Source: an uncultured virus (IMG/VR IMGVR_UViG_3300031329_000004) (lineage: Duplodnaviria > Heunggongvirae > Uroviricota > Caudoviricetes). Taken from it: 64,000 bases of DNA. A model generated the notes under the pieces. That model saw nothing but the letters and a program-made list of their open reading frames with translations. It was not told the DNA's origin and did not search any database. The stretch lies in the IMG/VR virus record IMGVR_UViG_3300031329_000004, one strand, 5' to 3'. The position numbers and the translations under genes were made by a program. Within the stretch, counting starts at the first letter, position 1. Each line of letters begins with the position of its first letter. Below are positions 12,001-31,842 of this stretch, piece by piece.

Positions 12001-15000
12001 ATAATTCAACTGGTCAAAGATTCTTTGATTTACTTAATGGTATTAATTATATGATTAAGTATTGATATGCTAATACATTGCATTATGCAGGTACAATATC
12101 TGCTACTATTCAAATGCCATGACAGTACACTGAGATAATGACTCGTAAGTGATCTTTCTGATGAATATCAGATATAGAAATTTCAAAGATAAGAGCAAAC
12201 ACTAAGGTTATGAAATGAGAAGATACTCATATATTTGCATCTGGTATAGCTTTGCAAAACAATGACAACCCCTTTGCTAATTTTTGATCTGATTTTATTT
12301 CTAATCAATTCTTTAAATTAGATAATTTTATTGAAAAGAAGTATGGTATTGATACAGGTTTATGAATGAAAGTAAGATGAACTATAGATTTATTTACAAA
12401 TCCATTATGAAAGCAAGATGCTCCATTTGATAATATAAGAAAAGATGCAGCAATAAAACAAGCAATGTTTGAAAGTTGATATAAAACTTATGAAGATTTA
12501 ATACTCTCTGTAGATAAATTTTGAAAATGAGAAATGATTCGATTTGAAACAAAAGCTCGTATGATTTATAATGAATTATGAGGATGAGTATCATCTAAAG
12601 ATTCGTTATATAAAATAAATAAATTATTCAATTTACATTGATATTCTAATAAAGAAGATATGTCATGATTTGCTGCAATGGCTATGAGATCTTGGCAGAA
12701 CCTTTGAGGATATTTAGCTCATTGGATGGCAAATAAAACAATGAGAAATGTTGAGATAATTCAAAAACTTACAAGAGCAGCAGCTCATGGTGACCTGGAA
12801 GCTATATGACAACTTACAAGAGTTTCACTTTCAAGAGCCAGGAACATTGCTTACATTGCTACTATGTGACTTAAGTATGATAAACTTCAAGATATAGATA
12901 CTACTAAAAGAGATTGACCATTAGCTCTTGTAACTACATTAGCTAACGATGTTGTATGAGTATTAGCATTTACATGATTTGCTATACAAGCTCATGAAAG
13001 ATCAATACTTATGGATGCGTGACTATGAGAAGAATCATTAATAATGTTACAATCATTTACTTGAAGATTTACAGGTTCATTAAATGTAGTACCTAATCTT
13101 ATAGATAGTTTATACTCTCAGTTAGTTTTAAAGAATTGGAATAAAATGTCTATATGAGAAAAGAACTTATTTATTATTGAAGCTGTTATGCAAACAATAA
13201 AAGATAATGGATGAAACTTTAATAGATATTCATGAGTAAATAAAAGTGAATACTGAGAATGAAATATATGATTTTCATATAGTTCTATTACATGACAATG
13301 AGTATGATGACAAAAATGAAAGATAGATTCTGATTTATGGTTAGATAACTCTACCCAGAAAGATATAATCGCATTAAGATCCGAGTGATGGATACCATAT
13401 CTAAAACATATTAGTAAAGCATTAATTTGAGATAGATTATTTAAGAACAATGTAACCTATGAAAATAGGCTCTCAGCAGAACAATATGTTTCATTGAGGT
13501 CTAGTATAGCTCTTAAAGAAATAGATGATGCTATGCTTTGATTATCTGATACTAATTGAGTATTTAATGTATTACATTGAGATAGATATTCTAATCCTGA
13601 AGATATTATAACATTCAAAGTTCAATGAAAAGATAAAGAGGTACATAGAAATGATGTTATACTTATGAATGCTTTTAATTCTTATTACTTTGCAAATGGT
13701 AAGTTGTGACTTGAAAAACTTAATCCCGATGGAAGTAAGAACTGAGTCACTGATAAAGAAGAAGCTGCAAGAAGAAATATAATGAAAGATACATTCTGAG
13801 ATTTAAGTATTCCGTATAATATCTATATAGAAAATTGATGAGTTCAAAAGTTTGATCAATGGGTATATGAAAGAATAGTTTCTATGTGACTTAATTCAGA
13901 AGAATGAAATATAATGTTATGAGAACACGAAGTGGCTATTCCTGAAATAACTGATTATATTATAGATAATGAATTTAGTAATAAAAAGAAACAATATCTT
14001 ATAGACACTTATTGAAAAGATCACTATTACAAATGATATGATTATGATGATATACCAGATGTAGAAGAAATGATTATGAAAATTAATATCTATAAGAACA
14101 TGCCAGAATTAATATCACTTGATAGATGAATAAAACGAGTTGCTGATGGTGTTGCATTGTATTTAGATGAAACCATACAGGAATCTGTTTATAAATCATC
14201 ATGAGCTTATTTACCTATCATGTGGAAAGACGAAGACAATGAAATGTTCGATCAAGATAATATGTTATTAACGTGACAGGTTGATGTAGATAAATATCCT
14301 CAATCTAAAGAAAGTCATAAAGTCTGATATAGGATAAAACAAAGACTAGAAAATAAACTCAAAGAAGATGATCTTACAGAGTACATGATTTCCAAATGAG
14401 AAACGTGAGAATTAAGTAGCTCTTTAAAAGTACTTTCTAATACATCTAGAGATGCTTGAACATTAACAAAAACATTTGATAAGATTAAATCAAGAATGAC
14501 AGATAAAGAATTTGCTAATTTCAACTTGCAGTTTTTAGATTCTATGAACTCTAATATAGCGAAGAAGTTACATTGAAGCAAATTTATGGAAAACCTTAAA
14601 GAATCTTGATTGGTATCTGAATATGTTAATTATATGTACGCCATTACAGATTCTATAAAAGATTATGATCCTGAAGAATCGTGAACTGGTAAAAGCTGAG
14701 ATTACATATGAAGTAGTTTTAATTGATTCTCAAGATACACATGACAGAATCAATGATATAAATGAAACTATTGAACATTTTCTAATGGGCAATGACTAGC
14801 ATCAGAGTATCAGCCTATAATAAAATATGTTAATGACAATAGAGATATGCTGTATGATAATCCACATAAAGTTATTCAATCTTATATAGCAGATATTCCT
14901 TTTATTCCAACAAGAGCTTGATTAAAAATCGCAGATTATATTCTTCCAAGAATAAAAGAATTAAAGATTTCTCCATCTTGAAATGTTATTAAAGAAACTG

Positions 15001-15158
15001 GTGGTTCAATATATGTAAAAGATAATGTGACTTACAAAAAAATTAAAAAAATTTCTAAGATACGAGTAAGACAATCTAAAGTTAGAAGTAGAATTAAATA
15101 TTCTAGGAAAACTAAGAATCTACTCAGTGGTTTAGTATATGGAAAACAAGACTTCTAA
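3..15158 (+). CDS. Giant virion/ejection polyprotein (>5,050 aa, 5'-truncated by the window) containing a two-barrel DNA-dependent RNA polymerase and a degenerate PD-(D/E)XK domain
   Basis: One frame (positions divisible by 3) is open with TGA=Gly at every line I spot-checked; I did not check every codon. It contains track ORFs 4416 and 9690 and ends TAA at 15156-15158. Motifs: VITRAP (7701), KVHP..LRLDHDGDT (DHDGD at 7827-7841), EDGTG (6945), LGKGL (7065), YDIKT/QLSMY (10413/10488). Confidence 0.88.
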
Positions 15159-15174
15159 TATTTAAAATAAAAAT

Positions 15175-15561
15175 ATGGACGAGAAGAACCTACCAACAAA
15201 AGCATTTACTCCTCTTGAGATAAAGAATCTAAAAGATTTGATATCTCAAAAGGGAATAGTGTTCGAAGCAGAACTTATAAAAGCTATAGAAGAAACAGAT
15301 CTCAATGATGATTGATTTTGATTTGATGCTATAGGTATTGTTAAGAGATATGCTAAGACAGCAGATAATGCTATGAAAGTAAATCCTAAAACTTGAGATT
15401 TAATTCCAGATGAGGAAACGAGAATGAAAGCGCTAGATAAAATGACAAAGATATTGTTGTGACAATCTTGAGCTTCTAAATGAGTAACTGTAAACATACA
15501 GAATAATACAAACCTCTGGAACACTTGAATACCAAAGCCATGAGAACATTTAATACATTAA
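15175..15561 (+). CDS. Probable terminase small subunit
   Basis: 128-aa ORF immediately upstream of TerL; helical PDEETRMKALDKM segment and a C-terminal VTVNIQNN strand, as seen in TerS proteins. Confidence 0.6.
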
Positions 15562-15573
15562 TATATATTCTAG

Positions 15574-17661
15574 ATGATAAGTCTAAAAAACATTGAACGA
15601 CCTAGTATATTAACTCCAAAACAGCACCAATTAATCTTGGGGCTGATTTGAGGTTTAATAACAACAAATGATCAGATCAAAGAAAATAAATCTATTTATG
15701 GTTGATGCAATTCTGATTACAAAGTTCTTGATAAGCAATTAGCAAGAGAGATAGATAATTATCCAAGTGTAAATAGAAGATTAAAAACAAAATCTATGGC
15801 TGAGTATTTAGTATGAAAGACTCAGACTATTCCTCTTATATGATCTTGAATCAGAAATGAGAAACATAAATCACTTGATGATGTTATAGTAAAATATTAT
15901 CTATATCCATTCTTTGAAGATAAAACTACTATATCAGATAATATTTTATATATGTGGTTTGATTTATTTAAAAATGTAAGAGTTCAGAAAATATCAGATG
16001 GTCACCTTAATATGTATATATGAGATGAGCCTATGGATATGTTTCAATTCCATGATAATATTCCATTTGCATTTGAATACTATACAGATTTTTCTAGAGA
16101 TAGATTACTAGAAATAGAAATAGCTCTCTGATACACTAATAAAACTATTGGTGACCCAACAAGAGGATATTGATATACACATATGCTCAGAGCGAATGTA
16201 TGAGAACATATGGTAATGCCTGCAAATGCTATAAGACTTATAAAGAATTGGAGATGGTTCAATGTATATCTCACATCTCGTAAACAAGGGAAGACAAGTT
16301 TTGCTGCAGATAGAATTGTAGCAGAACTATTATCTGAAAAAAGATGATATGGTATGCGTAAAAATAGAAGAATAAAATTCTTTACTGATAATGCAGCAAA
16401 GGTCTGAACGGAATGTATGCAATTTATTGCAGACTTTCTATGAGACTTAGTCAAACAAGAAATTTCTCCAGGTGTAAAATATTTTGAAATAAGAGAATCT
16501 AAGCAAGAAGTTATCTGTAATCTTACAGGTAACTCTTTTGCTGTTGTATCTTTAAAGTGACTACAATGAGACTCAGATAATTCAACAGGTGATGGACTTG
16601 CATGTGATGCAGCAATTATAGATGAGTGATTCAGAATAGGATATAGATTCTGGAAGTCATTTAGAGATAGAGCGAAAGAAGAATGTGAATGGATATTATT
16701 TATATCTACTTTAAATGAAGAAACTGAAATAGGCCATTGGGCTTATGATGAACTTATAAAATGAGAAGCTTGATGTAATCCAGATTACAATACTGTGAGA
16801 TCAAGTGACTTTGATAATTCAGTTACATATCATAATAACTTCCTAAAGAGATGACTTACTCTCAAAGATTTTTATAAATATACATGGAATAAATTAAAAG
16901 AAAGATTAAAAGAAACGAATGAAGAGTATATCATGAAAAGAATACTTTGTTGAATACTCTCTGATAGGACTTTATTTGATGTCACAGGACGAATAGCTGC
17001 AGTTAATGATAAAGCTGTACAAACAGACTTAAGAGTTATCTGAATCGATATGTGAGGTCTTTCTGACCATGTATGAGTATGTGAGTTTAATGTACGAAGA
17101 CTTATAGTTGAGAAATGATACTCTCATAAAATAGATGGTGACTATCAAAACTGTTTAGTAATAGCAAGAGAAGCAAAAGAAAAATATCCAAACTGTATAA
17201 CTGTATGAGATAGATGATGACCTGTATGAGAAGCTGTAGCTATACTAGATAAGAAAACACAATACATAGATTACTGGATTAAAAGTACCGGTAATAGTAG
17301 TGGACTCAATGAATTAGATTGATACTACACTATGAAAAAATGAGTCTTTGTTTTATCATGAGCCTATGCGCTTACAAACATTGTTAAAATTATGATGAGT
17401 TGTACAGATCTCATTACTCAATTTTGAGATATGGAAATGAAAAAATCTACAAGATGAGGAACTATATTATATAAAGCAAAGAAAGGAAGAAAAGATGATG
17501 CAGTTTTCTGATATCTAAATGTATTCTGATTGCTACGAATCATATTTCAGTTGCTATCAAAAGAAGACATGATAGACTTTGCCAAGCAGTACTGAGAATC
17601 TGAAGTAATTGCTGTAGACGATAGTGACGAAATTTACTATACAGGATGAATGACTTATTAA
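15574..17661 (+). CDS. terL: Terminase large subunit
   Basis: Walker A TSRKQGKT (~16273), Walker B AAIIDEG (~16610), IST coupling motif, RNase H-like nuclease motifs GIDMG..SD (~17041) and KDD (~17490). Confidence 0.93.
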
Positions 17662-17679
17662 TTTATAATTATTACTACT

Positions 17680-18231
17680 ATGAACTATCCAAATTGAGTA
17701 TACATTGCTATGAATCTTTCTAGAGATACTGAAGAAAATATAAAAAAATATTGCTCTGAGCATCTTCCAGATATAGAGATGACAGATGACTTACATTCAA
17801 CTGTAATTTATTCTAAGAAACCTCATGAGAAAAAAATAAAAAGAGATCAATGTAGGTGTAAATGAAATCCAGGAAAATTTGCAAAATATTGAGATGATAA
17901 AGAATCACTTGTAATTGAAATTGATTCTGAAGATATGCAATCTATGAATAATAAAATGATGGAAGAACATGACTTTGTCACAGACTATCCAGAATACAAA
18001 CCTCATATTACTCTTACATATGCTTGAAAAGAAATTGATATTGATTCTCTTCCTCCTATGGAATTTCCAATAGAAATGGAACATCAAGTAATAGAAAATC
18101 TAGATGAAGAAGCTATGACTGATGAAAAGAAAGATGATGATCTAATGACTGATGAAGAAATGAAGAATAAAAAAGATGAAGATGAAGATGAGGATGAAGT
18201 AGAAAAAATGTCTGAATGATTTGTAATGTAA
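17680..18231 (+). CDS. acb1: Acb1 / T4 gp57B-like 2H phosphodiesterase (candidate anti-CBASS cyclic-nucleotide nuclease) with an acidic C-terminal extension
   Basis: GVYIA...LHSTVIYSK...LVIEIDSE...DYPEYKPHITLTY parallels T4 57B as I recall it (GLYVAA...IHSTICYSR...LVLVLDSE...DFDDYTPHITLSY); both HxT motifs are intact. Confidence 0.85.
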
Positions 18232-18255
18232 TTTATATATTTAATAAAAGTATTT

Positions 18256-20145
18256 ATGCAACTCTCTGAGGGAAAAATACAAAAGATAAAAGATTTGATC
18301 CATGATAATATGCTTGATTTTCACAACTATGAATACAAGTCTTATATTGAAGATTACAAATCTTATATAGGTGATGTATCTGATAGGCTCACAAAAAAAG
18401 AAGATTGGCAAATGAATATGTCATATCCTCTTGCTTTGATGATGGTAGATACTGTATATGGTACAGTATTTGATTTTGATTTTCAAATGAAAATTAAGAA
18501 TGATAACTTACAAAATGCTTGTATTGATGCTTATGATTTTATGAGTAAATGAAAACAAGCTCTTGGTATGTCAGCTAAAGAATGACTTATAACAGGTACA
18601 TGAATATTTCGTGACTATACATATTACGAAGAATGAAAGTATGAAGCTTTCTGATCTACTATAGATTATGAAATAAAGAGTCCTACTATGGAATATGTTT
18701 CTATATTCAATGTTATGTATGATAGAATGAAATGACTCAATGAATCATCATATAAAATAGTAAGACAGTTTTTATCTGAATCAGATATATCATCTAGAAT
18801 TACAAGTTCTATTAATGATAAAACATTAAAGGATGCTACTGAAGCTACAATAAAAAAACTTAATGGTTCTGAGAATAGTTCATTTTCAATGTATAATTAT
18901 GAAGCTATAAAAGGTTTAATATTCTCTAGTCAATTTATAGAATCTTTCACTGATAGTAAATGAAAAATAGCTAAGTGATATAAGACTGATATTGAATCCG
19001 TAAAATCATATAAAGACTTGAATTATAATCTCTCTGAATGATCAATAGAAAATACTATGAAAATGTCTCCATATTATAATGATTTTAATTATAAGTATGA
19101 AGTTGTTGAAGTTATGGAATGAACATATAAACATGTATTTATAAATGGTACTTATATTCTTACTCAAGAAATAAATCCAAATATTTATAATCTTGTATCT
19201 ATAGAATTTAATAAGATACCTGGTTCATGAAAATCTATTGGTATACCTAGAATTATTAAGCAACTTGCTGAAAGTTCTAACTGATTGATGAATATGTTTC
19301 TTGATAGTTTAAAGTTATCAAATACTTTAATATTCAAAAAGAAAAATTGACTTCCATCTAAGAATGAAAAAATTCAAATTAAATCATGACAAGTTCTATC
19401 TGGTGACCTACAAAGAATTGATCTATGAGGTGGTGACTTTAGTGGTATGAACTGAGTACAAGCATTACAAGGTATAGCGCAGTCTACTCTTGGTATCAAT
19501 CAAATGATAATGGGTGGTGACTCTAGAGTACAAAGAATAGCCGGAGCATTTGATTTTGCATTCTCACAATATAAGTCACGACTTACTCCTTTTACAGATT
19601 CAATAGATATCTGAATGACAAAAGTAATCAAATGATGGATATCACAATACATATCTATGTATACTGAAGATGAACTATTAGATAGATACTGAATAGTTGT
19701 GACAAAAGTAAAATGAAAAAATAAAAATAAAGATAAGATAATTGATATTATGCTAGATGATATTTCAATAAGAGATATTTTAAATGAAAATAACATTTCA
19801 TTTAAATTCGATTCAATGCATAACTTGAAAAAAGATGCTAATAAAAAACTTGCTATGGATATATTCCAATTAGCACAGCAATACAATAATCAAAAAGTTG
19901 ATGGTGAAGCATTTATTAAACTCCTTTCTGGTGACCAAGATGTAAAACTCGAAGATGTATTATGAATACAAAAGGAATATAAAGATCTTGATAATACTTC
20001 TGATTTAGATATTGATCAAATTCTTAATGAAGTTGATGAAGATTTCCAAGAAGAGGAAATTGATTCTGAGATAGAGGCTATCGAGCAAGTATCTCCAGAT
20101 ATAAATATGTCTAGAGAAGATGATTTAACATCTAATTTATTATAA
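18256..20145 (+). CDS. Portal protein (podovirus-type)
   Basis: 629 aa, lies between TerL and scaffold/capsid; KEGLITGTGIF and NKIPGSGKSIGIP segments resemble P22/SU10-like portals; acidic tail. Confidence 0.8.
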
Positions 20146-20146
20146 T

Positions 20147-20470
20147 ATGTTTAAAAAATTACTATACAACACAATCATGATGTTTGACAGCTTATATGTA
20201 TATTTATATCCTAAGGACAAGAGTGATCAAATTAAGTTATTACTTAATGATTATTCTGAAACAGAGGTATATCTATCAAATTTTGTAGAAGCAAGAGGAC
20301 AGGAAACTTTAAAGGAGATATATGTTATTATAAATAATTTCTATATCTGAAAGTTAAACAGTTTAATTGTGGAAGGAAACGATATAGAAATCTCAAAACT
20401 AAAATATCTGCAAGTTCTTTTGCTTGATATGAAAGATACTTTAAATACTAATTCTGATAATAATGGCTAG
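20147..20470 (+). CDS. Small head-module hypothetical protein
   Basis: Track ORF 20147 extended through TGA to TAG at 20468-20470. Confidence 0.7.
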
Positions 20471-21116
20471 TGATATATATGACTTTGGTAAAACGACTGA
20501 AGATAATGTAACAACAGATGATGTAACTACTGATGATGTAGTAACTGATGATGTTGTAACAGATGATGTAGTAACAGATGATGTAGTAACAGATGATGTA
20601 ACTACTGATGATGTCGTAACTGATGATATAACTACTACTGATGATGTTGTTGTATCTGAATCTGAAAAAGTTGAAACTGAAATAGATGATGAAACTGCAA
20701 AGCTTGATAAAGAGCTTGCTGATTTAGAAGCTATTCTTAAATGAGATACTGCTACACCATGACAATCAGATGAAGCAAAAGAAGTATCTGTTAGACTCCA
20801 GGAAACAATTAAAAGTATGAAGTCTCTTACTAAAAAAATTGATGAACTTGAACTTGAAAAAGCAGAGAGAATTAAATTTTGAGAAAATGCTTGATTGTCT
20901 CCAGAGATGATAATTCTGAAAGCTCATTATGATAAAGCTAAGAAATGAGATGAGGGATCTATCAATAAGATAAAAGAATTAATAGCATCTGATCTTGGAC
21001 TAGAGGTTACAAATCAAAAAAAAGTATTTGTATCTAGCGCAATATCTTCTAATGCTGCAGATGTAAATGTAGACAAGTCTGAAGATATATGATTCGGAGC
21101 TTGATTCACAATGTAA
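20463..21116 (+). CDS. Probable capsid scaffolding protein
   Basis: Directly upstream of the capsid gene; acidic low-complexity N-terminus, coiled coil (LDKELADLEAILK), ends GFGAGFTM. Confidence 0.75.
20502..20654 (+). repeat. Coding tandem repeat, about 10 imperfect 15-nt units (TDDVV/TDDVT) in the scaffold
   Basis: acWgatgatgtWRYW-type units with synonymous variation. Confidence 0.95.
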
Positions 21117-21143
21117 TTTTAAATTTAAATACTAAAAAATATT

Positions 21144-22565
21144 ATGGACAGAAAAAACCAACCAGGTCAATATGGTGCAGATGTAAATGTTACAGATTTT
21201 CTAAACGAACTTTGTAAAAGACCATCTGCAAATATCACTGCAATGAATGAAGACGAAATGTCAGAGCTTACACTTCTAGGTTTTGATATCACTGAAGATA
21301 CATTTCAAGGTAAAGGTCAACTCGGTATTTCTCAATACGGTGACAGACTTAATCTTCCTATGAAAAGTATCAAGGAAAAAAATATGTTTAAAGTTTTCTC
21401 TGGTCAACAGTTAGATCTTATAAACAACAAAGTTACAGTGACTGAGTTTGCAAATGATGCATCTCAAGTAGAAGCTGTTTCTGCAATTACTTCTGCTAAC
21501 TCTGGTGAGTTCTCAGATGTATCTGGATTCCAAGCTACTGATGTAGTACTTATTGTAAAAGGATCTGCAGCTAGTGCTACAGTACCTGCTAAAGTAAAGA
21601 TTACTGATGTTGATCAAGAAACTGGTGTAATTACTTTTGATACAAATGTAACTATTGCTCAAGGTGATTATATTGAATATATAACTACTGATGCATTCGG
21701 TTGTCAAAATAACACAAAAGGTGTTGCTCAGAACTCTGAAAAAGCTAAATCATTTACTTATAATACTCAGTTCTTCTCTCGTGAAGCAAAGGTTGATCTT
21801 TCTGATTTCAACAAAGTATTCGCAAAAGAATCACAACAGTATGAAGCATTTACATATGACTTCTATGGTAAACCTACTCAAGAACTTTATTCTGAGGTTG
21901 CAAAATCTTTCAGACATGGTTCTGGTATCACAGGTGCTTCACCTAAGATTAAAGGGTACGATACTATTATCGAAGAAAGAGATGCTGCAGGTCTAGAATC
22001 TATTATAGATTTTACTGGTATAACTGGTACTGAAGCTGAAAAAGCTGATAAACACCAAAAGAAAATTGAAGATATTCTTTACAGAGTAAATCAATCTCCT
22101 GTAAAATCTAAGTTTGTTCTTATTGGTAATTCTCGATTCCATAGAGCATATAAAAATATGATGCAAGAACTTAGAGGTGAAGCAGAAGCAAGAGCTACTG
22201 GTCAACTCTTTGATACTATCCATGATGGTATAATGAAATGGAATGTAGAGGAAGCTCCTATGGTAGATTTCTACCTATCTAGACAACTATCTAGAGAGCA
22301 AGCATATGCAGGTCGAGCATATATTCTTCCTAAAGATCTTATTGCAGGATTTACTCCTAAATGGTCTGAAGTAGAAATGAAAGGAAATGGAAGTATTGCT
22401 CCTAAAGCTGCTGTATTTGGTGCTGTTAATACTAGAGAAAAAGTTGGACAGGCTACTGCTGAGTGTAGAGTATACGAACATTATATGAGACTAGGATTCA
22501 TATTTGCAGGTGTATCATACAGAGATACATACTTCAGAATTGATGACTTTAACTTCGGTCTATAG
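21144..22565 (+). CDS. Major capsid protein (probable HK97 fold)
   Basis: 473 aa after the scaffold; YNTQFFSREAKV segment resembles SU10/P22-like capsid proteins; strong codon bias, no TGA codon; followed by a terminator. Confidence 0.85.
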   Translation: MDRKNQPGQYGADVNVTDFLNELCKRPSANITAMNEDEMSELTLLGFDITEDTFQGKGQLGISQYGDRLNLPMKSIKEKNMFKVFSGQQLDLINNKVTVTEFANDASQVEAVSAITSANSGEFSDVSGFQATDVVLIVKGSAASATVPAKVKITDVDQETGVITFDTNVTIAQGDYIEYITTDAFGCQNNTKGVAQNSEKAKSFTYNTQFFSREAKVDLSDFNKVFAKESQQYEAFTYDFYGKPTQELYSEVAKSFRHGSGITGASPKIKGYDTIIEERDAAGLESIIDFTGITGTEAEKADKHQKKIEDILYRVNQSPVKSKFVLIGNSRFHRAYKNMMQELRGEAEARATGQLFDTIHDGIMKWNVEEAPMVDFYLSRQLSREQAYAGRAYILPKDLIAGFTPKWSEVEMKGNGSIAPKAAVFGAVNTREKVGQATAECRVYEHYMRLGFIFAGVSYRDTYFRIDDFNFGL

Positions 22566-22591
22566 GCTTTAAGAGAAGTCTTATGACACAA

Positions 22592-22630
22592 GAGGCTTCC
22601 TAAGCATATTAGGAAGTCTCTTTATTTTTT
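22592..22630 (+). terminator. Intrinsic terminator after the capsid gene
   Basis: gaggcttcctaa-gcata-ttaggaagtctc followed by tttatttttt. Confidence 0.85.
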
Positions 22631-22642
22631 AAAAAATTACAT

Positions 22643-23290
22643 ATGAAATCTAGTATTAATACATATATAACTTATAGTGAATTACTTGCAATGCTACATC
22701 CATATTTCCTTATGAGTTGATGAGAAGATTTCATGACTACATGAGAACTTCCTATACAAATAAATTTAGCTATTCAAGATCTTATGAATAATTCATCTTT
22801 CTCATTTATGTCTGAGTTTGATACACTCGAACCTGAACCAGAATTATATAAGTGACATTATAGAATATTTAAAACAGAGTTTCCAATAAATAGAGTTCAT
22901 GAATTATTATTAGATGGTGATCCAGGTACTCCTTGAGAACTTGTAAATAGAATGCCTTACTTCTCTTCTCCAGAAGTATTTTATAAAAGAGGTACTAATA
23001 TACTTTATGGTCCAAAAGACTGTGACAAGATGACTATAAATTATGAAAAAGAATATATTAGAAATAACATTGTCACTGCTGAAGATTTAAAAAGAGAACT
23101 TCCTATTCCTTATAGTTTTGTTCCTGCTTTAATGAAAATGATATATGACAATTCATCTATGTTTACATTTTTCCAATGAGAATGAGAAAGCGCAGATTAC
23201 TATGGTCACTGAAAAACTAGATTAAATGACTTGGTAAATTCTGATGATTTATCCTCTAAAACAAATGTTAAAATATGAGCAGAACTATAA
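22643..23290 (+). CDS. Probable head-tail adaptor (tail tubular A-like)
   Basis: 215 aa after the capsid gene; INLAIQDL and LPIPYSFVPALMK segments typical of podoviral adaptors. Confidence 0.6.
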
Positions 23291-25053
23291 TCGAATTTAA
23301 TAAACAGCTTAAGATTGGTACTACCAATGTTGAGTACGAAAAAATTTTTAATTGTAGAGTTATAGATCCTACATATGAAAAATGAAAATGATTATATAAT
23401 TCTGAATTTTTTCTGGATAAAAGATTTTGAATGAAAGAATTTGTTATTGATAATTTTCATTATACGGATGATATAAAAATATACTCTAAGACTTATTTTT
23501 TATATAGAAATAATTCTTCTATATTTGTTTGAGTAAAAACTCCTACATGAATAAAAAGTATAGCAGGTCCATTTGCTTATGACAGAAGAAATCCTATTCG
23601 ATTTTCTGAATGAAGATGAGCAAATGGAATCCGAAAAGAATTTAATGTTTCTGTTTCTAATTGAGCTACAATAGATAATACTAACTTAGTTATAAATGAA
23701 GATTGAGTTTACGAAGATTGATATATAACTTTAGATGTTTGAACTTGATTAAATATAGAAGCTTGAGATTATGTATTATTCAAATCATGAATATATGCGT
23801 GAGCTACTATAAGAGTTGATTTATATCAAGATGGAAAAATATATATCATAGGAATCAATTCTAGGGGGTCTATCCCAATAGATTGAGACAACATAGATAT
23901 ATACTCCGAATCTTGAAAAGTTCCTCTTATAGGTACAAGAGAATGACTTTTAGCAATACATATAAATTGAGATAATTCTTGTGACCATACAAATATACTT
24001 ACTTGAAATATTGATGATGTTGTAAGATTCAACTGAGAAATATTTGTTTTGAAGTGAGATGTTGTATATTTTTCTCGAAGTACATTCGATGACAACTTAC
24101 AATTTTATAAATCAGCAGATAGGAAAAGAGTAAGATGAGCTTATAAACTTATTCCAAAATGAGGATATCTTCTTGTTATGTGAGATGATAATAGATTAGT
24201 GTCACCACAAAATGATGAATACTCTTTCTTTCCTCTGAATTATAGTTCAGAGCTTTATAGTAAATACTCTTATATATTTACTGATTCAACTTTGTACATT
24301 ATACAATCTGATAGAGAAATTGCTAAAATAGATATTACAAGTAATGATTCAGTTTCGTTTAATCTTACTGTGACTCCTATAACAGATACAGTAAAATGAT
24401 TACTAGATGATATAGATAACTTTAATTCTTTTGATAAATGAGAAATCTATGTTAATAGAAATAAAAATGATAGAAGAATACATTTTCTATATGTAAGACA
24501 ATCATGAGATACATTAGAGTATGAATACGATATGGAATACCAACACTGGTTACTTAATACTTATACTCGAACTATTTATAAAATATCAGAACAATATCTA
24601 TGTAATGGATCTGTTTCAGATATTTCTGGATATACAGATCTTTGAGAAGAGTATAAACAATCTATAAACTTTACTATTCAAATTCCTAATTTAATTACAA
24701 AAGTATGATTACTTAGAATGATTATGTGAGTTTCTAATGAGTTTAATTTAGAATATGATGTTGATATAGATGTTGAATCTAGTCACTCTCTTACTAAAAG
24801 AAAGTTAAAAATAAAGAGTGTGGCTTTAGATACAATGCCGGTTGACCATAGTTTAGACATGCTTAATGTACTCATGAACTGAAAGGACAATAAACATGAT
24901 TGAAATATAGCATCAGTGCAAAGAACAATTATGATGTCCGGTAGGTATCACAGATATAACATAAACTCTAAAAATAGATTTATATATTGATATTCTTATG
25001 TCCTATGAGTTCCATCTAATATATTTGTGAATGAAAGAAACTTTAGTTTTTAA
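23275..25053 (+). CDS. Probable tail nozzle / tubular B-like beta-rich protein
   Basis: 592 aa, beta-strand rich, follows the adaptor as in podoviral gene order; includes track ORF 24199. Confidence 0.6.
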
Positions 25054-25065
25054 AATAAATAAAAA

Positions 25066-25986
25066 ATGGATTACGATTTCTGAAAAAAGAAAATGATGTC
25101 TTCTAATGAAGATTCAAAAGTCCCAGTATGAGAATATGATTTTGGACAAAAACAAATGATGACTCCTATTAAACCAAAGCAAGAAAAAATATTAACAAAG
25201 GTTGAAAAAAAAGAAACTCCTGATTTTAAAGAAGTTAACATTACAGAAATTAAGGATCCATCTTATTGAAATGAAGTTGATAGGATGTATACAACTCTTA
25301 AAAAACAAGATTACCCTTGAGCTAGTTTAGCAAGCAGTATAGCATCTTGATACATAAGAGAGACTTCTTTAGTAGATAAAGAAACTGATGCAATTGAAAA
25401 AAAAGAAGGAAAAGATTTAGCTGATTTATATTATTATAATGCCCCATTATATAAAAAGTTAAAAAATGAATCTGAAGATCTAGAGTTTGATTCGGAAATT
25501 AAAAAATATATATCTGATTTATCAGATTTAGATTCTAGTTTTAGAAAAAGGACAAATAAAAGAGAAGATGTTATATCTATATATGAAGATATAAAAAAGA
25601 AGCGTAATGATATGAATCAAGCTTTTTCTAAAAAATCTCAAGAAAAAAAAGATGAAAAGATTCTTTTAGAAAAAAAAGAAGAAGCTATATCTGACTTATC
25701 TGAACTAGAGTATAAAGATAGGTATACTGAAAAAGAAATGGATATAATTATAGATAAAATGATTAATATAAATAATCAATATGAATCAATAGATCCATCA
25801 GATAAAATTTCAAAAAAAATTCTGGATATAAAAAAAGATGTATTACTTTGACATCCAGATGATTTATCAAAAAAGATGAAAGCTGAAAATCAAATTAATG
25901 AATTGAAGATTCAACTGGAAAAAGAATGAAAATTTAATTTTAATGATAATGAATCTGAAGAAGAAAGTTTTTGATTCTCAATGTAA
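25066..25986 (+). CDS. Charged coiled-coil protein, probable internal virion protein
   Basis: 306 aa; two YDFG[KQ]K.MM motifs at the N-terminus; ends EEESFGFSM. Confidence 0.65.
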
Positions 25987-26009: not shown

Positions 26010-27461
26010 ATGTCAAAATTGCTAGAACAATTAGAAGAATCTAGAAAAAATTGAACTCTTACAGATAAAGATGTAGCTGAGTTTAATAAATCTTGAGCGC
26101 TTACTATTAATACCTCTCTTAATGATTGAGATAATATTAAGAATGTTCACTATGAAGAACTCAATAAAACTTGAGAAAATTATTCTAACATAGTAAATGA
26201 TAGAGCGTCTAAGCTTAAGGCTACTACTATGGATGCTGCGAATAAGCAAACAGATATAGAAGTAGCTAAGAGTAAAATTAAGACAGAGAGAAGTGATGAT
26301 ACTCGTGAAGATCTTCTTGAAGTTACATGAGATTTTAAAGATAAACAAGAAGATAGATATAAACAAGTTGCTGAGATTACCGATCGCCAAGAACGAATTG
26401 CTAATAGGCAAGCTAATATGTCTGCTGCATCTGCTTGAAAATATGGTGACATATTTACTGATGGGGGTATGGCCAACATCAAGAATGATATTATCTCTAG
26501 ATTTGGTGAGCAAATTCTAAGCGCAGAGCAATATGAATTAAATACTAACAGAACTATAGATAATGATTTAATGAATGTTGGTCTTACTGAGATTACAGAT
26601 AAAGATAAACGAGATTCGTTTAAAGATGTTCTCCTGGATAAAGATAATGCATATATATTGAATGCAATTTCTGTTGCTGCAGAATGAGACAAAGAGGCTA
26701 TTAAAGATGTTTCTAATTTCTACGAAGCATATGTTAAGCAAAAAGCAGATAACGAATCAAAGAGAGCATGATTCACTGAGCAGGCAGCAGGTATGGAAAA
26801 TGAATACCAATCACTTGATGTATTTGGAAAAGCTCAATTACTTCAAAGACAAACTTGAACTATCACTTGATATGGATTAATTGCAGACAGAATTCCTGCT
26901 TTAATTAATAAATATCCAAATGCTACTCTTGCTGAACTAGAATGAAAGGTTGCAAAAATTGCAGAACTTGCTCTTACTGCAAAACAACAGTTACCAACTA
27001 TCATTGCTAAATCTGAAGACGATAGAACACAAGTTGAAAAAGATATTCTTAAAACTTATTGAGATAGAGGATTACAAGAAATGCAAAACTCTGACAGAAG
27101 CACAAGTGAAACTCTTGCGCAACAAGCTGCATCTGATAAATGACTCATTAAACAATGAGGAACATTAAAAGATTATTCTCCAGAATGAAAAAAAGTTCTT
27201 GAAGAAAATGCAGAAAATATTCGTTTAACAAACGAAGAAAAAAGAGCGAAGATTGAAAGACTAAAATGAGAGCAACAAAAAGCTATTCGTGACAAAAGAT
27301 TAAAAGACGAACAACAACAAATCAACGATAATAAAAAGAAAAGAAGAGATGCCTATCGAAAACTTGCAGATTTATCCATAACACAATGATTTGATAAAGA
27401 TGCTGTTAAGATTAAAAGAATGAAAGATGTTATTGATAAAGCTCTTCCGATAACTCTATAA
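26010..27461 (+). CDS. Probable DNA ejection / internal virion protein
   Basis: 483 aa, helical and Ala/Gln/Arg-rich (RQANMSAASAGKYG); lies after the tail genes. Confidence 0.6.
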
Positions 27462-27488
27462 AAAATTTATTTTTCTAAAACAGAAAAA

Positions 27489-29348
27489 ATGGAACATAAC
27501 TTACAACATGATTATATTTCTGATTTACTGAATCCTATCCCTCTTGCTACAACTTGAGAGATAGCTATTTCACTTTCGGTAGAAATAAAAGCTGATATGT
27601 GATTCATAATTATTGATAGATGAATCAATATGACTGAAGAACGAATGATGTATCATAGAAAAAATGCTAATACAGTATATGTATATTCAGAGAATAGAGT
27701 CACACCTAGACACCATTCAGTATTAGCTAAAGTTATTCTTGATACTGTAGGTTCTATAAATTACGCGCATGATAATTGATTTGATCAAATGTATATATTC
27801 AGAAAATCTGAAAATGATGTCATTATTAAATGAGGTCCTTTTTTTATAAACAAAGAATATATTACTCTTGAAGATTTAGATACTGAGACAAGCGATCAAA
27901 ACTTATCATACTGACAAGATAACTATATTTATATAAAAGATAATGCATATATAGTCACAACAGATATTATTCCAGGATTATATCCTGTATGAATTATATC
28001 TGTTGAGGTATCATGATCTATTTCAAAAATACAAATGATGAATGTATTTCCTATAGGTCACTGAATTACTGAATCAGATCAACAGAAACTTAATAACTTA
28101 GATTCATCTAAGTATGAAAAAAATGAAAATAAAACTAATTCTATTAGACCAAAAACTGAAGCAGATAATACTAAATATCCTACAGAAAAAGCTATTGCAA
28201 ATGCTCTTTATTGAAAGGTAGATAAAGTAGAATGAAAATGACTTTCTAAAAATGATCTGACAGATGATCTTAAATGAAAGATTGATGAGATGATACAATT
28301 AGATTTACCAAATTCTCCAATATCAAAACCTCCAATGATAGCAGGTCCATGAATACTTATAGAAGATTTATGAGATGCATGATATAGATTTAGATCATCT
28401 ACAAGTAATGCATATGGAACTGCCGGAGAACATATAGATATATTTCCAGTAGATTCTCATTCTAAAATGATTCATACTGACGAGCAAAAATATGTAGTTT
28501 TAGAAGATTGATATAGAAGTTGATTCTATGGTAATTCTAAATTTAAAGATGCTCAGAATCCTGCTGTAACTGTTTTCTATAACAATCCAAACAATGCAGG
28601 TACTATGGTAATTGATACTCATATACGAGTCGTTAATGGTCTTGGTATGATGACTGAGACACATAAATCTATTCCATACCAGGTTAATCTTGTAAAAGGT
28701 CACTGAGCATTCGAGTTATCTCCAGAATCCTTTGCGTGACTTGATTACATAAACTCTGTTGCTATGTATATTAAAGTAAACAGAGTATGAGCATTTATCA
28801 CAGATCATAATGGTTCAGAGTTTAATACTGAAATAAATGATTTAGATAGTGTTGTATGACCTGTTAGAATCAAATCTATGTTCATGGACTATGAACAAAC
28901 AATAGAACTACCACAGGCTTGATATGCTTATGAACATGATCAATTTGTAGCTTCTGATACTTGGAATATAACACACTGACTTTGAACTAAAAAAATTATA
29001 GTTCAATGTTATAATGCAGGATGAGAACCTATACAGTTTGATACATATAGTTTTACTGATAATGATACTATTAGTATAAAATTTAGTGATGATGTCTCAT
29101 GAAGCGCTGTAATACTTTCTTCTTGAGGTGAAGCTCCAGATACTTCTGGTGACGATAAGAACTTTGAGGAAGTATTTACAAGTGTCACAGGAGGATGAGT
29201 CTTTACTCATTGAATGTGAAAATATCCTTGTATCACTGTTATAGATTCTAATTGAAAAGAAATTATTATAGAGACAACTCATCAAGATAAAAATATTGTA
29301 TCTGTTACTTGGACATGAACACATACAGGTAGATTTATAGCAAACTAA
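27489..29348 (+). CDS. Tail fibre / proximal fibre protein
   Basis: 619 aa; KVDKVEGKGLSKNDLTDD fibre motif; two C-terminal modules of the WNITHGLG..IIVQCY / THGMGKYPCITVID type. Confidence 0.7.
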
Positions 29349-29376
29349 AAATCCTTATTTATTTAATACAAAAATT

Positions 29377-31842
29377 ATGTGAAAAAAAGTATTAGTTGAT
29401 TTGGACATGAATCTTAATCAATTACTAAATTTAGTTTTTCAAATATCACAAAACGATTTAACTTCATGAGTCTCATGACAAGTTTTCTTTAATGATACAG
29501 AAAAAAAATTAAAAGTGTATGATTGAGCAACATTTAAAAGCATACTTACTCAAGCTGATAAACTTTTATTTGAAGCAAAAGATACAGAACTTTTATGAAA
29601 AATTACAAGTATAGAAACTCTTCTTGCTTCAGATGATGTAGACCTAGATGATATGAAAGAACTTGTAGCTTTTATTAAAGCTAACAAAACAGAACTAGAA
29701 AATTTATCTGTAAGTAATATTGCTTGATTACAAGATTCTCTAGATGATATGCAAATTGAATTACAAAAAAGCTCTACGCACATTCAATGGCGAAGAGCTT
29801 CTGGTTCATGGATAAATCTAGTTTCTATTGATGATTTAATTGGCCCTCAATGAGAGAAGTTAAATATTAGAGTAGATGATAGCCAACTACAATTCAAATA
29901 TCAAACAGAGTCTATATGGACTGATTTATTTAATCTTAATAGTTTAAAGTGAGATTCATGAAAGAATCCACTTTTTAGAGTAGATGGACAAAAATTACAA
30001 TATCAGATTGTATGAGATGCATGATGGATAGATTTATATACATTTCCTACAAATGTAATTACATGGAATGAAGTTTCATTAAAACCTATTATATATACTA
30101 AGTCACAGGCTGACTTATTATTTAATGCTAAATTATCTATATTAGATATTAGAGATGATTTACTTTGAACTGCAGCAGACAAAGCTTTATCTGAGAATCA
30201 ATGAAGAATATTAAAATCACTTATTGATGATATATGACTTTTACTTTCTAGTGATGATACTACTCTTGATGAAATTCAAGAGATTGTTTCTTATATAAAA
30301 CAAAATAAATCTGATCTGCAGAATCTTTGAGTAAATAATATTGCAGGACTTCAAGATTTATTAAATTTAAAATCTAATTCTAATCATAATCATGATTGAA
30401 TATATGAACCTAAAAAATCATCTGATGATAATTATGTTACAGATGCTGAAAAAACAGTAATAGGAAATACGAGTGGTACAAATACAGGCGACCAAGACCT
30501 AAGTACATACTCAACACTCACAGGAACAGAAACGCTCACTAATAAAACACTTACAAGCCCAGTAGTAAATACTCCAACAGGAATAGTTAAGTGAGATGTT
30601 TGATTATGAAATGTAGATAATACAAGTGATACTACAAAGAATAGTGCAACAGCTACACTCATTAATAAAACTCTCACGAGTCCAAAAATAAATCTAGGCT
30701 CTGACGCTACTGGAGATATATACTATAGAAATGCTAGTGGGTTATTTACTAGACTACCAATAGGAACAGTAGGACAAGTGCTAACAGCTAGTGGAATACC
30801 TAGTTGGGCTGATGCTAGTGAATGAGGAAGCTCAATGCTAAAACATAAATTTACAGCTCCTTGAACTTGGAATAATGAAGTAACTGGAATCAATCAAGTA
30901 AGTGTTGATACTACAGATATGACAGGAGGGATAGTAGATGTACAGATTGATTGAGTAAGTAAAAAAACATTCCTACCAAATGAGCGTTGAATTTACATTA
31001 ACGAGGGAAGTACGGATATTGATATAATCGCAGGGGGGGGATTAGGTTTATCAAGTTATGATTCAGTAAGTAGGGGTTGACCAAATACATTTATGCGTTC
31101 ATTAAGATTTAAACCAGATGGTACTAGATTGTATCTTTTATCTGCTTCTGGAAGTAGAACTGTTTATGAATATGTACTTTCAACTCCTTGGAATTTAGCA
31201 ACAGCATATAATTCAAATAGGAGCTTTAATACTCTCTCACAAGAAAATAATCCAACTTGAATATTCTTTAAGCCCGATGGAACTGTAATGTATGTTGCAG
31301 GGGTTACTAATAAGAAGATTCATCAATATTCTCTTTCAAATGCTTGGGAAATCCACACTGCGTCTTATAGCTGAATTAGTTTTAATGTATCTACTCCAGA
31401 ACTCAATCCATACTCAATGTTCTTTAAATCTGATTGAACTAAGATGTATACTATAGGGACGAGTCAAAAGGTTCATCAATATACACTTTCAACTGCTTGG
31501 AACGTAAGCACTGCAAGTTATGATTCAGTTAGTTTTAACATAGCCAGTCAAGATATCTCTCCTTGGGGTATGTTTATTAACGATGATTGAAGTTCGATGT
31601 ATATGGCTTGAGCTGTTAATAGTTCTTTATATAAATATACATTTTCAACTAATTGGGATGTATCAACACTCTCTTATACTTGAGAAAGTTTTAATATAAG
31701 CAGTCAGGAAACTAATATTAGGTCTGTATGATTTAAAACTGATGAAAGTAAAATGTATATTATGGGGACTCAAAATAATGCAGTTTACCAATACACTGCT
31801 GGATTATCATTTACTGGAGAAGCCTTTACTACTATAATTTAA
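29377..31842 (+). CDS. Tail fibre with C-terminal beta-propeller (probable receptor-binding) domain
   Basis: 821 aa; duplicated LL.SDD..LD...E.V..IK.NK..L.NL...NIAGLQD block; TLTNKTLT repeats; DVGLGNVDNTSD; repeated FKPDGT.MY...YxLSTAW.I.TA blades from ~31100. Confidence 0.8.

What the first reader, a model, noticed from the sequence alone, without database searches (positions are those of the whole stretch)
18181..25986. Shared acidic-GFxM C-terminal tag on the scaffold, Acb1-like enzyme and an internal protein: candidate capsid cargo-loading signal
Seen: three otherwise unrelated late proteins end alike: Acb1-like ...DEDEVEKMSEGFVM* (18231), scaffold ...DKSEDIGFGAGFTM* (21116) and the 25066 protein ...NESEEESFGFSM* (25986). 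Each is encoded TGA-TTY-NNA-ATG-TAA. Established: scaffold C-termini bind the coat interior in P22-type phages. Inference: the scaffold's coat-binding peptide has been grafted onto cargo, so an anti-defence enzyme would be packaged and injected with the DNA. This would resemble an encapsulin cargo-loading peptide in a phage.
Basis: partly seen in the sequence, partly recalled or inferred. Interest (0 to 1): 0.88.

Follow-up and report, generated by a model that had tools for sequence, protein, structure and literature searches.

The report
Shared capsid-docking tail on phage proteins
In a salt-lake phage that reads TGA as glycine, the scaffold, an Acb1-type anti-defence enzyme and a third protein all end in the same short acidic GFxM tail, which most likely pulls them into the assembling virus head.

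Summary
TGA-TTY-NNA-ATG-TAA occurs three times in 64 kb (0.09 expected). Each copy closes a head-module gene: the Acb1-like gene (17680-18231), the scaffold (20463-21116) and a 306-aa protein (25066-25986). TGA is glycine here, so all three end GFxM.

The tail is under selection. Five of 6 scaffold homologues (49-94% identity) end F-x-M. Both full-length Acb1 homologues (56-62% identity) end xF[AV]M after an acidic linker of unrelated sequence. The 188 cultured-phage Acb1 matches stop at about residue 150, so they lack the tail.

New support came from cultured phages. The Acb1 domain is fused to the portal's C-terminus in Pam3 and in a Rhizobium phage (Pfam), and similar matches lie under portal or head annotations in 25 of 42 records. 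In two other phages it is a separate gene beside the portal.

Best reading: a short C-terminal docking motif that recruits proteins into the procapsid, making Acb1 a head-internal protein.

Not shown: the receptor (coat or portal), retention after DNA packaging, and injection. The tail of the 306-aa protein could not be tested in relatives, and one distant scaffold relative lacks the motif.

The parts
17680..18231 (+). Acb1-like 2H phosphoesterase gene (183 aa). The catalytic domain covers residues 5-145. An acidic linker covers residues 146-179 (18115-18216). The terminal G-F-V-M lies at 18217-18228, followed by a TAA stop.
   Evidence: Pfam PF23474 Acb1, E 1.1e-25, 90.5 bits against a cut-off of 27. 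phrog_755 E 4.9e-25. PDB 7t26 Acb1 E 3.8e-9. Both H-x-T motifs are invariant in the alignment (H39/T41, H109). The tail was read. Residues -24 to -5 are 55% D/E, the highest of 80 ORFs.
20463..21116 (+). Scaffolding protein candidate (217 aa). It has an N-terminal D-I-Y-D-F-G motif (20472-20489), acidic TTDDV repeats, long helices, a helix-turn-helix, and a disordered tail ending G-F-G-A-G-F-T-M (21090-21113).
   Evidence: The gene lies directly upstream of the capsid gene. AlphaFold2 (mean pLDDT 56) gives residues 1-62 disordered, helices at 66-93, 102-138, 147-160 and 164-177, and residues 180-217 disordered. There is no Pfam or PHROG family match.
25066..25986 (+). 306-aa K/E-rich protein of unknown family. 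It has two N-terminal Y-D-F-G motifs (25069-25083 and 25132-25146) and a C-terminal E-E-E-S-F-G-F-S-M, with the tag at 25972-25983.
   Evidence: No family match. The only hit among 1.84 billion representatives is its own cluster.
21144..22565 (+). Major capsid protein (473 aa, HK97 fold) and a candidate receptor of the tail. It has no TGA among its 36 glycine codons.
   Evidence: The AlphaFold2 model has pLDDT 56. Foldseek against the PDB gives 104 hits at E<=1e-3, and all the listed ones are phage capsid or encapsulin shells; the best is 9in6_M at E 5.6e-12.
18256..20145 (+). Putative portal protein (629 aa), the alternative receptor. The gene starts 24 nt after the Acb1-like gene.
   Evidence: The assignment rests on position (after the terminase) and size only. 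There is no Pfam, PHROG or PDB sequence match. The homologous C-terminus precedes the small gene, scaffold and capsid gene in L001.
15574..17661 (+). Putative large terminase (695 aa), the start of the head operon that contains the Acb1-like gene.
   Evidence: A weak Terminase_6N hit, E 0.048 and 13.7 bits, below the cut-off, and seen only with TGA=Gly. The gap to the Acb1-like gene is 18 nt.
22590..22622 (+). Terminator-like hairpin (14 pairs followed by a T-run) just after the capsid gene. It closes the unit terminase, Acb1, portal, scaffold, capsid.

Best explanation
The acidic linker plus G-F-x-M-COOH is a short linear docking motif. It recruits its bearers into the assembling procapsid: the scaffold, the 306-aa protein and an active-looking Acb1-type cyclic-oligonucleotide phosphodiesterase.

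All three are made from the late head operon. The exposed, disordered tail inserts its Phe and Met into a pocket on a head-interior component. My estimate of the receptor, given docking, is the inner face of the HK97-fold coat (about 45%), the portal (about 25%), or other (about 30%). Acb1 thus becomes a head-internal protein, the non-covalent counterpart of the portal-Acb1 fusions in cultured phages.

Shown: the motif, its enrichment, its conservation on two of the three proteins, the Acb1 identity, the tail as a lineage-specific add-on, and the portal fusions elsewhere.

Inferred: docking itself, the receptor, retention after DNA packaging, and ejection into the next host (about 0.3 on its own).
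For: (1) The motif closes 3 of 80 ORFs and occurs twice internally in 20,583 residues (P about 1e-6 to 1e-8).

(2) All three genes lie in the head module of one strand-uniform operon, with short gaps and no terminator before the capsid gene's hairpin.

(3) Scaffold homologues, 6 from the database. Five end F-x-M: P0009 and P0012 end ..GAxFTM, P0010 ends xFGxFIM, P0013 ends GFGFVM, and P0011 ends SFFM. Four of those five keep G or x at position -4. The preceding residues stay acidic.

(4) Acb1 homologues. Both full-length ones (P0016 at 62% identity, P0017 at 56%) end xFAM or xFVM after acidic linkers that do not align.

(5) The tail is absent from cultured-phage Acb1. All 188 tblastn records are matched over query residues 1 to about 150 only. 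PDB Acb1 is 144 aa. The nearest cultured homologue lies among early and replication genes.

(6) Acb1 domains are tied to the head interior elsewhere.
- Pam3 portal (621 aa): Phage_portal_3 at 40-388 plus Acb1 at 471-616, E 5.5e-29, with both HxT/S motifs kept.
- Rhizobium phage RHph_TM3_3_3 portal (608 aa): Acb1 at 469-606, E 4e-33.
- In 25 of 42 records matched by the Pam3 domain, the match lies under a portal, head-protein or DUF1073 annotation.
- Synechococcus phage Yong-M3-232 has a separate Acb1 gene directly after its portal gene.
- Edwardsiella phage vB_EpM_ZHS has a separate Acb1-like gene between the terminase and portal genes, as in this window.

(7) Precedents, read as passages.
- 80alpha scaffold and SaPI1 CpmB share a C-terminal 'RIIK' helix-and-hook that binds the coat N-arm (PMC5644958).
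- T4 internal anti-defence proteins share only a capsid targeting sequence (PMC3012670).
Against: - No binding test could be run. Complex prediction does not admit recoded proteins.
- The one distant relative with DNA in hand (L001, capsid protein 36% identical) has a homologous scaffold that ends ..SENVSDYVEI, without the motif.
- P0014 ends xFVLxA, so the motif is not strictly terminal. P0011 lacks the glycine.
- The scaffold's invariant residues lie in the helical region (residues 129-177) and in D-V-N 200-202, not in the tail. A P22-style helix-turn-helix may therefore be the coat binder.
- Conservation on the 306-aa protein is untested.
- Acidity is partly a proteome-wide trait here: net charge is -25 for the portal and -12 for the capsid protein, and the source is salt-lake metagenomes. 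A strongly acidic tail might be expelled by DNA, as scaffolds are.
- A portal-fused domain stays with the empty capsid unless it is cleaved, so the fusions support a head-interior location but not injection.
- In phage G, a canonical Acb1 was not found in the proteomic data (bioRxiv 10.1101/2024.12.16.628780, passages).
Confidence: 0.55

Rival explanations
1. Assembly-only co-factor. The tail docks the three proteins to the scaffold core or procapsid during assembly, but Acb1 and the 306-aa protein leave with the acidic scaffold when DNA enters. Acb1 then acts only in the producing cell, for example by clearing cyclic-oligonucleotide signals late in infection near assembly sites, and is not delivered to the next host.
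For: - The tail and the whole Acb1 protein are strongly acidic (net -27), like the scaffold (net -32).
- No prohead protease was detected in the head module, so a P22-type scaffold exit is plausible (established knowledge of P22).
- A 2026 preprint reports that phage protease enzymes activate CBASS (PMC12991175, abstract only), which places CBASS sensing late in infection.
- Late-operon expression fits.
Against: - A folded domain of about 17 kDa is less likely than an elongated helical scaffold to escape through capsid pores (inference).
- The portal-Acb1 fusions place the domain permanently inside heads.
- Late cytoplasmic action alone needs no tail.
Confidence: 0.2
2. C-terminal recognition signal unrelated to capsids. 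An acidic stretch plus hydrophobic-x-hydrophobic-COOH could be read by a host or phage PDZ-type or tail-specific protease or an unfoldase (a degron), or by another common partner, to time the removal of these proteins.
For: - The motif sits at the extreme C-terminus in 3 of 3 window proteins and in most homologues.
- Its F-x-M-COOH form resembles class II PDZ ligands and C-degrons (recalled knowledge, not tested).
- The phage uses another C-terminal tip elsewhere: the 41476-42282 product ends ..EEISIEELPF, like an SSB tip.
Against: - No PDZ or protease gene was found in the head module.
- In P0014 two residues follow the motif, which is bad for a strict carboxylate reader.
- The bearers are a scaffold and head-operon genes, and Acb1 domains are tied to portals elsewhere. 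Both point to the head.
- A degron on an anti-defence enzyme has no evident benefit.
Confidence: 0.1
3. No peptide function. The shared 15 nt would be a gene-end nucleotide signal (translational coupling or re-initiation before the next gene) or a chance or recombination relic.
For: - The three copies are near-identical at DNA level (TGATTYNNAATGTAA).
- Each is followed 23-27 nt later by the start of a large structural gene.
Against: - Gaps of 27-28 nt also precede genes whose upstream neighbour lacks the motif (27461 to 27489 and 29348 to 29377).
- Homologues keep G/x-F-x-M while varying the third residue (V, A, T, I, F), and use GGN-glycine in place of TGA at the same positions (P0012, P0013).
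- The acidic linker is conserved in character, not in sequence.
- Chance is excluded.
Confidence: 0.05

Closest known systems
T4 capsid targeting sequence (CTS) on internal proteins (IPI-III, Alt)
   Same: A short conserved peptide is the only feature shared by diverse proteins, several of them anti-defence. It directs them into the prohead so that they travel with the DNA (PMC3012670, passages).
   Different: - The T4 CTS is N-terminal, targets the scaffolding core, and is cut off by the prohead protease (recalled).
- Here the motif is C-terminal and is also carried by the scaffold itself.
- No protease gene was found.
- There is no sequence similarity.
80alpha scaffold and SaPI1 CpmB 'helix-and-hook' (RIIK motif)
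   Same: A scaffold and an otherwise different protein share a C-terminal motif of about 16 residues that binds the same site on the HK97-fold coat N-arm (PMC5644958, passages).
   Different: - That motif is basic (RIIK), helical, and used by a satellite to compete with the scaffold.
- Here the motif is acidic plus G-F-x-M, predicted disordered, encoded within one phage, and attached to an enzyme.
Encapsulin cargo-loading peptides
   Same: A C-terminal short peptide, placed after a flexible linker on enzymes, docks on the lumen of an HK97-fold shell (established knowledge, recalled). The resemblance is functional.
   Different: - The shell here is a true phage capsid protein in an operon with terminase and portal candidates.
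- The motif sequence differs.
- Binding was not tested.
Portal-Acb1 fusion proteins of cultured phages (Pam3 gp3, Rhizobium phage RHph_TM3_3_3, and others)
   Same: The same enzyme family (Pfam Acb1) is attached to a head-interior component encoded in the terminase-portal region.
   Different: - Those phages use a covalent N-terminal tether to the portal's C-terminus. The window has a separate gene with a C-terminal tail.
- The window's domain is closer in sequence to stand-alone early-gene versions: 35.8% identity to Vibrio phages against 23% to Pam3.
P22-type scaffolding protein
   Same: The gene lies directly upstream of the coat gene. The protein is acidic and elongated-helical, with a predicted C-proximal helix-turn-helix. 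No protease was detected.
   Different: - There is no sequence family match.
- A 40-residue disordered tail with a terminal motif follows the helix-turn-helix.

Membership tests
Acb1 (Pfam PF23474, 2H phosphoesterase) | Profile match above the curated cut-off | tested here: met
   90.5 bits against a cut-off of 27, E 1.1e-25, residues 5-145. PDB 7t26 Acb1 E 3.8e-9.
Acb1 (Pfam PF23474, 2H phosphoesterase) | Two catalytic H-x-T/S motifs | tested here: met
   L-H-S-T (H39) and P-H-I-T (H109) are invariant in alignment A3 and align with those of 7t26.
Acb1 (Pfam PF23474, 2H phosphoesterase) | Cleavage of CBASS cyclic oligonucleotides | not testable with these tools
   This needs an enzyme assay. 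The host's defence systems are unknown.
HK97-fold major capsid protein | Fold similarity to solved capsid proteins | tested here: met
   Foldseek gives 104 PDB hits at E<=1e-3, and all the listed ones are capsid or encapsulin shells. The model itself is of low confidence (pLDDT 56).
Phage scaffolding protein (P22 type) | Gene adjacent to the coat gene, helical and elongated, with no enzymatic domain | tested here: met
   (low-confidence model).
Phage scaffolding protein (P22 type) | C-terminal element binds the coat interior | not testable with these tools
Encapsulin cargo-loading peptide | Short conserved C-terminal peptide after a flexible linker on cargo enzymes | tested here: met
   Acb1; disordered tail of the scaffold.
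Encapsulin cargo-loading peptide | The shell is an encapsulin, with no terminase, portal or tail | tested here: not met
   The shell gene lies in a phage head operon with terminase and portal candidates and with tail-fibre and lysis genes.
T4-type capsid targeting sequence | N-terminal peptide removed by a prohead protease | tested here: not met
   The motif is C-terminal, and no protease family was found in the module.
80alpha SP/CpmB helix-and-hook | [quoted passage not shown] | tested here: not met
   The tails read G-F-x-M, with no RIIK.

The most novel reading that the evidence does not exclude
A modular, uncleaved C-terminal 'acidic linker + GFxM' cargo-loading peptide, shared with the scaffold, loads an active Acb1 nuclease and a second protein into the head of a TGA=Gly phage. 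Cyclic-oligonucleotide-degrading activity then arrives with the DNA at the first moment of infection. The portal-Acb1 fusions and portal-adjacent Acb1 genes in dozens of cultured phages would be the covalent version of the same strategy. On this reading, virion-borne Acb1 is a widespread counter-defence mode that my literature searches did not find described.
Probability: 0.3. Interest if true: 0.8.

Novelty: new variant of a known kind. Interest (0 to 1): 0.68.

Why it matters
Acb1 is currently treated as a soluble enzyme made inside the infected cell. A version carrying a head-docking tail, together with portal-fused versions in cultured and structurally studied phages such as Pam3, would mean that some phages pre-load signal-degrading enzymes into the virion.

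That would change when and where CBASS-type signalling can be blunted. It also offers tractable test systems, because Pam3, phiPSA1 and the Rhizobium phages are in culture.

A four-residue natural cargo tag on an HK97-fold capsid would also interest capsid engineers. It would give a natural phage-side example to set beside encapsulin cargo loading.

Tried and rejected
- **Whole genome:** none is held.
- **Related DNA:**
  - The capsid protein alone and the capsid alignment found nothing in viral contigs or genome contigs.
  - The capsid alignment found one 2.1-kb contig in metagenome contigs (L001).
  - The Acb1 alignment found nothing in viral contigs.
  - The scaffold alignment found nothing in genome contigs.
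  - The capsid protein has no tblastn match in GenBank phages.
  - The longer related contigs (40.8 and 45 kb) could not be fetched.
- **306-aa protein:** the search of 1.84 billion representatives returned only its own cluster. Conservation of its tail is therefore untested.
- **Complex prediction (capsid protein with the Acb1 tail):** I did not pursue it.
- **Protein atlas for the 306-aa protein:** I did not pursue it.
- **The genome search by taxon name:** not possible without a genome handle.
- **Sequencing runs:**
  - Ten salt-lake metagenome runs are listed, with no RNA holder.
  - The four runs laid carry only identical low-coverage fragments, with no variant letters. They say nothing about constraint or expression.
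- **TGA=Trp (code 4):** rejected on codon frequencies and homologue alignments.
- **Scaffold and 306-aa protein as paralogues:** rejected (BLASTP E 0.86).
- **Portal candidate:** no match in the PDB sequences.
- **Giant ORF:** no Pfam domain.
- **tRNA genes:** none in the window.
- **Literature:**
  - Searches for Acb1 with virion or packaged, Acb1 with portal protein and anti-CBASS with portal and fused produced no paper describing packaged or portal-fused Acb1, in the listings and in the passages I read.
  - This does not show that it is unpublished.
  - No supplementary files were consulted.

Full report
**What the window is.**
- The 64-kb window is 27.8% G+C and phage-like, with essentially all long ORFs on the plus strand.
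- Genes are open only if TGA is read as a residue.
- TGA is glycine, not tryptophan.
  - TGA+GGN together make 3-11% of codons per gene, while TGG stays near 1%.
  - Window TGA positions align with GGN-glycine, or with 'W' in database proteins that were evidently called under code 4. The counts are 11 G and 26 W of 49 cells in the scaffold alignment, and 9 G and 4 W of 15 in the Acb1 alignment.
  - The Acb1 profile scores 90.5 bits with G against 87.3 with W.
- NCBI table 25 is the code of SR1 and Gracilibacteria.
- Identical fragments of the region occur in salt-lake metagenome runs.

**The observation.**
- The three ends read TGA-TTT-GTA-ATG-TAA (18217-18231), TGA-TTC-ACA-ATG-TAA (21102-21116) and TGA-TTC-TCA-ATG-TAA (25972-25986).
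- The degenerate 15-mer occurs 3 times against 0.09 expected, and 0 of 100 shuffles reach 3. One-mismatch variants are at chance level: 8 found against 6.39 expected.
- As protein, 3 of 80 non-overlapping plus-strand ORFs end G-F-x-M. The motif occurs twice internally in 20,583 residues, giving P = 7.5e-8 to 1.2e-6.
- The residues before the motif are acidic. Acb1 has 55% D/E at positions -24 to -5, the highest of the 80 ORFs (median 10%), and the 306-aa protein has 35%.

**The bearers.**
1. *17680-18231.* This is an Acb1-family 2H phosphoesterase.
   - Pfam PF23474, E 1.1e-25, residues 5-145 of 183; phrog_755; PDB 7t26, E 3.8e-9.
   - Both H-x-T motifs are invariant.
   - Residues 146-183 form a tail outside the domain.
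2. *20463-21116.* This gene lies directly upstream of the capsid gene.
   - A low-confidence AlphaFold2 model (pLDDT 56) gives a disordered acidic repeat region (1-62), long helices (66-93 and 102-138), a helix-turn-helix (147-160 and 164-177) and a disordered tail (180-217).
   - This is scaffold-like, although no family matches.
3. *25066-25986.* This encodes a K/E-rich 306-aa protein with no family match.
   - It is not a paralogue of the scaffold (BLASTP E 0.86).
   - It shares a second motif with the scaffold. [YF][DE]FG occurs only 3 times in the proteome: at scaffold residue 6 and at residues 3 and 24 of this protein.

*Neighbours.*
- The capsid assignment of 21144-22565 rests on Foldseek: 104 PDB hits at E<=1e-3, with all listed hits being capsid or encapsulin shells, from a model of pLDDT 56.
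- The terminase (15574-17661) and portal (18256-20145) are assigned by position, plus a sub-threshold Terminase_6N hit for the former.
- A strong terminator-like hairpin follows the capsid gene.

**Conservation.** Only protein-level relatives were reachable.
- *Scaffold, six database homologues.*

| Homologue | Identity | C-terminal end |
|---|---|---|
| P0009 | 94% | ..IxFGAxFTM |
| P0010 | 59% | ..SxFGxFIM |
| P0012 | 50% | ..RGFGAxFTM |
| P0013 | 49% | ..DxGFGFVM |
| P0011 | 55% | ..STSFFM |
| P0014 | 55% | ..xMAxFVLxA |

  - Here x is the 'W' of a code-4 call, which I take to be TGA; I could not check the DNA.
  - So 5 of 6 end F-x-M, 4 of 6 also have Gly or x at position -4, and one carries a non-terminal variant.
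  - The N-terminal D-[IL]-Y-D-F-G is kept in 5 of 6.
- *Distant relative L001.* Its capsid N-terminus is 36% identical. Its scaffold is homologous through the invariant D-V-N but ends ..SENVSDYVEI, with no motif.
- *Acb1.* Both full-length homologues end in the motif after acidic linkers that do not align: P0016 ends ..EDDEExYHKxFAM and P0017 ends ..DDDDDETMTIxFVM. P0018 is a 115-aa fragment and uninformative, and P0015 is the window's own protein.
- *306-aa protein.* The search returned only its own cluster, so nothing can be said.

Variation of the third residue (V, A, T, I, F), and GGN-glycine in place of TGA in some homologues, point to selection on the peptide rather than on the DNA.

**The tail is an add-on.**
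- tblastn of the Acb1-like protein against 50,697 GenBank phage records matched 188 records, all over query residues 1 to about 150.
- Solved Acb1 is 144 aa.
- The most similar cultured homologue (Vibrio phages, 35.8% identity) sits among small early genes and a DnaB helicase.
- This lineage has therefore moved an Acb1 gene into the head operon, between terminase and portal with gaps of 18 and 24 nt, and given it the tail.

**Independent support: Acb1 domains joined to portals.**
- The PDB sequence search unexpectedly matched the Pam3 portal protein (8hds_A, residues 481-617 of 621, E 4.8e-6), with both H-x-T/S motifs aligned.
- Pfam confirms Phage_portal_3 plus Acb1 in the Pam3 portal (Acb1 at 471-616, E 5.5e-29) and in the portal of Rhizobium phage RHph_TM3_3_3 (Acb1 at 469-606, E 4e-33).
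- Using the Pam3 domain as query, 42 phage records match.
  - In 25 of them the match lies under a feature annotated portal (20), head protein (4) or DUF1073 (1).
  - Five more are 'hypothetical protein' at the equivalent place in phiPSA1-like genomes.
  - Several records are GenBank/RefSeq twins.
  - I checked only two fusions by Pfam.
- Synechococcus phage Yong-M3-232 has a separate 183-aa Acb1 gene (E 1.5e-38). It overlaps the portal gene's end and precedes a Mu-F-like minor capsid gene.
- Edwardsiella phage vB_EpM_ZHS has a 199-aa gene with the domain (tblastn E 1e-7) between the terminase and portal genes, as in this window.
  - That the C-terminal extension lies in the head interior is my inference from portal topology.
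  - The passages I saw do not mention the domain.

**Mechanism.** The best-supported reading is a short linear docking motif on a disordered acidic linker that brings its bearers into the procapsid. Two precedents are 80alpha scaffold with CpmB and the T4 capsid targeting sequence on diverse anti-defence internal proteins. An ejected virion protein that inhibits CBASS has also been reported (bioRxiv 10.1101/2025.07.23.666291, abstract).

The following are not shown:
- The receptor. The scaffold's invariant residues lie in the helical and helix-turn-helix region, not in the tail, so the tail need not be the coat binder. The portal is a serious alternative, given the fusions.
- Retention after DNA packaging. 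The tail is acidic, like scaffolds that exit the procapsid.
- Ejection. A portal-tethered domain would stay with the capsid unless it is cleaved.

Canonical Acb1 was not found in phage G proteomic data. This fits the view that only tailed or fused versions are head-associated, but it also warns against generalising.

**Verdict.**
- I rate it a new variant of a known kind (capsid targeting signals).
- The apparently undescribed portal-Acb1 association is a finding worth following in its own right.

Noticed in passing
window 21144-22565: The capsid gene has 0 TGA among its 36 glycine codons, whereas the other real genes use TGA for 25-100% of glycines. Close homologues also have few (1 'W' at a reference-Gly position), and distant ones have 4-9. 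This may reflect selection against TGA in the most highly expressed gene, or recent acquisition of the gene.
   Followed up: partly
window 36-15158: A single ORF of 5040 aa with 266 in-frame TGA lies just upstream of the putative small and large terminase genes. Neither half has a Pfam domain. It may be a giant virion or ejected protein.
   Followed up: partly
window 20472-20489, 25069-25083, 25132-25146: A second shared motif, Y-D-F-G, sits at the N-termini of the scaffold (one copy) and the 306-aa protein (two copies). These are its only 3 occurrences in the proteome. It is kept as D-[IL]-Y-D-F-G in 5 of 6 scaffold homologues and is absent from Acb1.
   Followed up: partly
L004 2272-4137; L002 3558-5384; one search hit list: Cultured phages of Pseudanabaena, Rhizobium, Pseudomonas syringae, Synechococcus, Aminobacter and Sinorhizobium carry an Acb1 domain at the C-terminus of the portal protein. 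My literature searches did not find this described.
   Followed up: partly
L003 1593-2144: In Synechococcus phage Yong-M3-232 the Acb1 gene overlaps the portal gene's 3' end by 26 nt in another frame. It begins with an acidic stretch of about 30 residues. It could be a split or frameshifted form of the portal fusion.
   Followed up: no
window 41476-42282: This 268-aa protein ends ..KDEEEISIEELPF after an AQAQAQ-type linker. The end resembles an SSB C-terminal tip, a different C-terminal short motif in the same phage. It has no Pfam hit.
   Followed up: no
window 15175-15561: The 128-aa protein upstream of the terminase, possibly the small terminase, contains an internal acidic D-D-G-F-G-F-D stretch that resembles the tail motif (read-out).
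   Followed up: no
window 17680-20145: The Acb1-like and portal genes are in the same reading frame. Between them lie one TAA and eight sense codons, so stop read-through would give an N-terminal Acb1-portal fusion. Chance could easily produce this arrangement.
   Followed up: no
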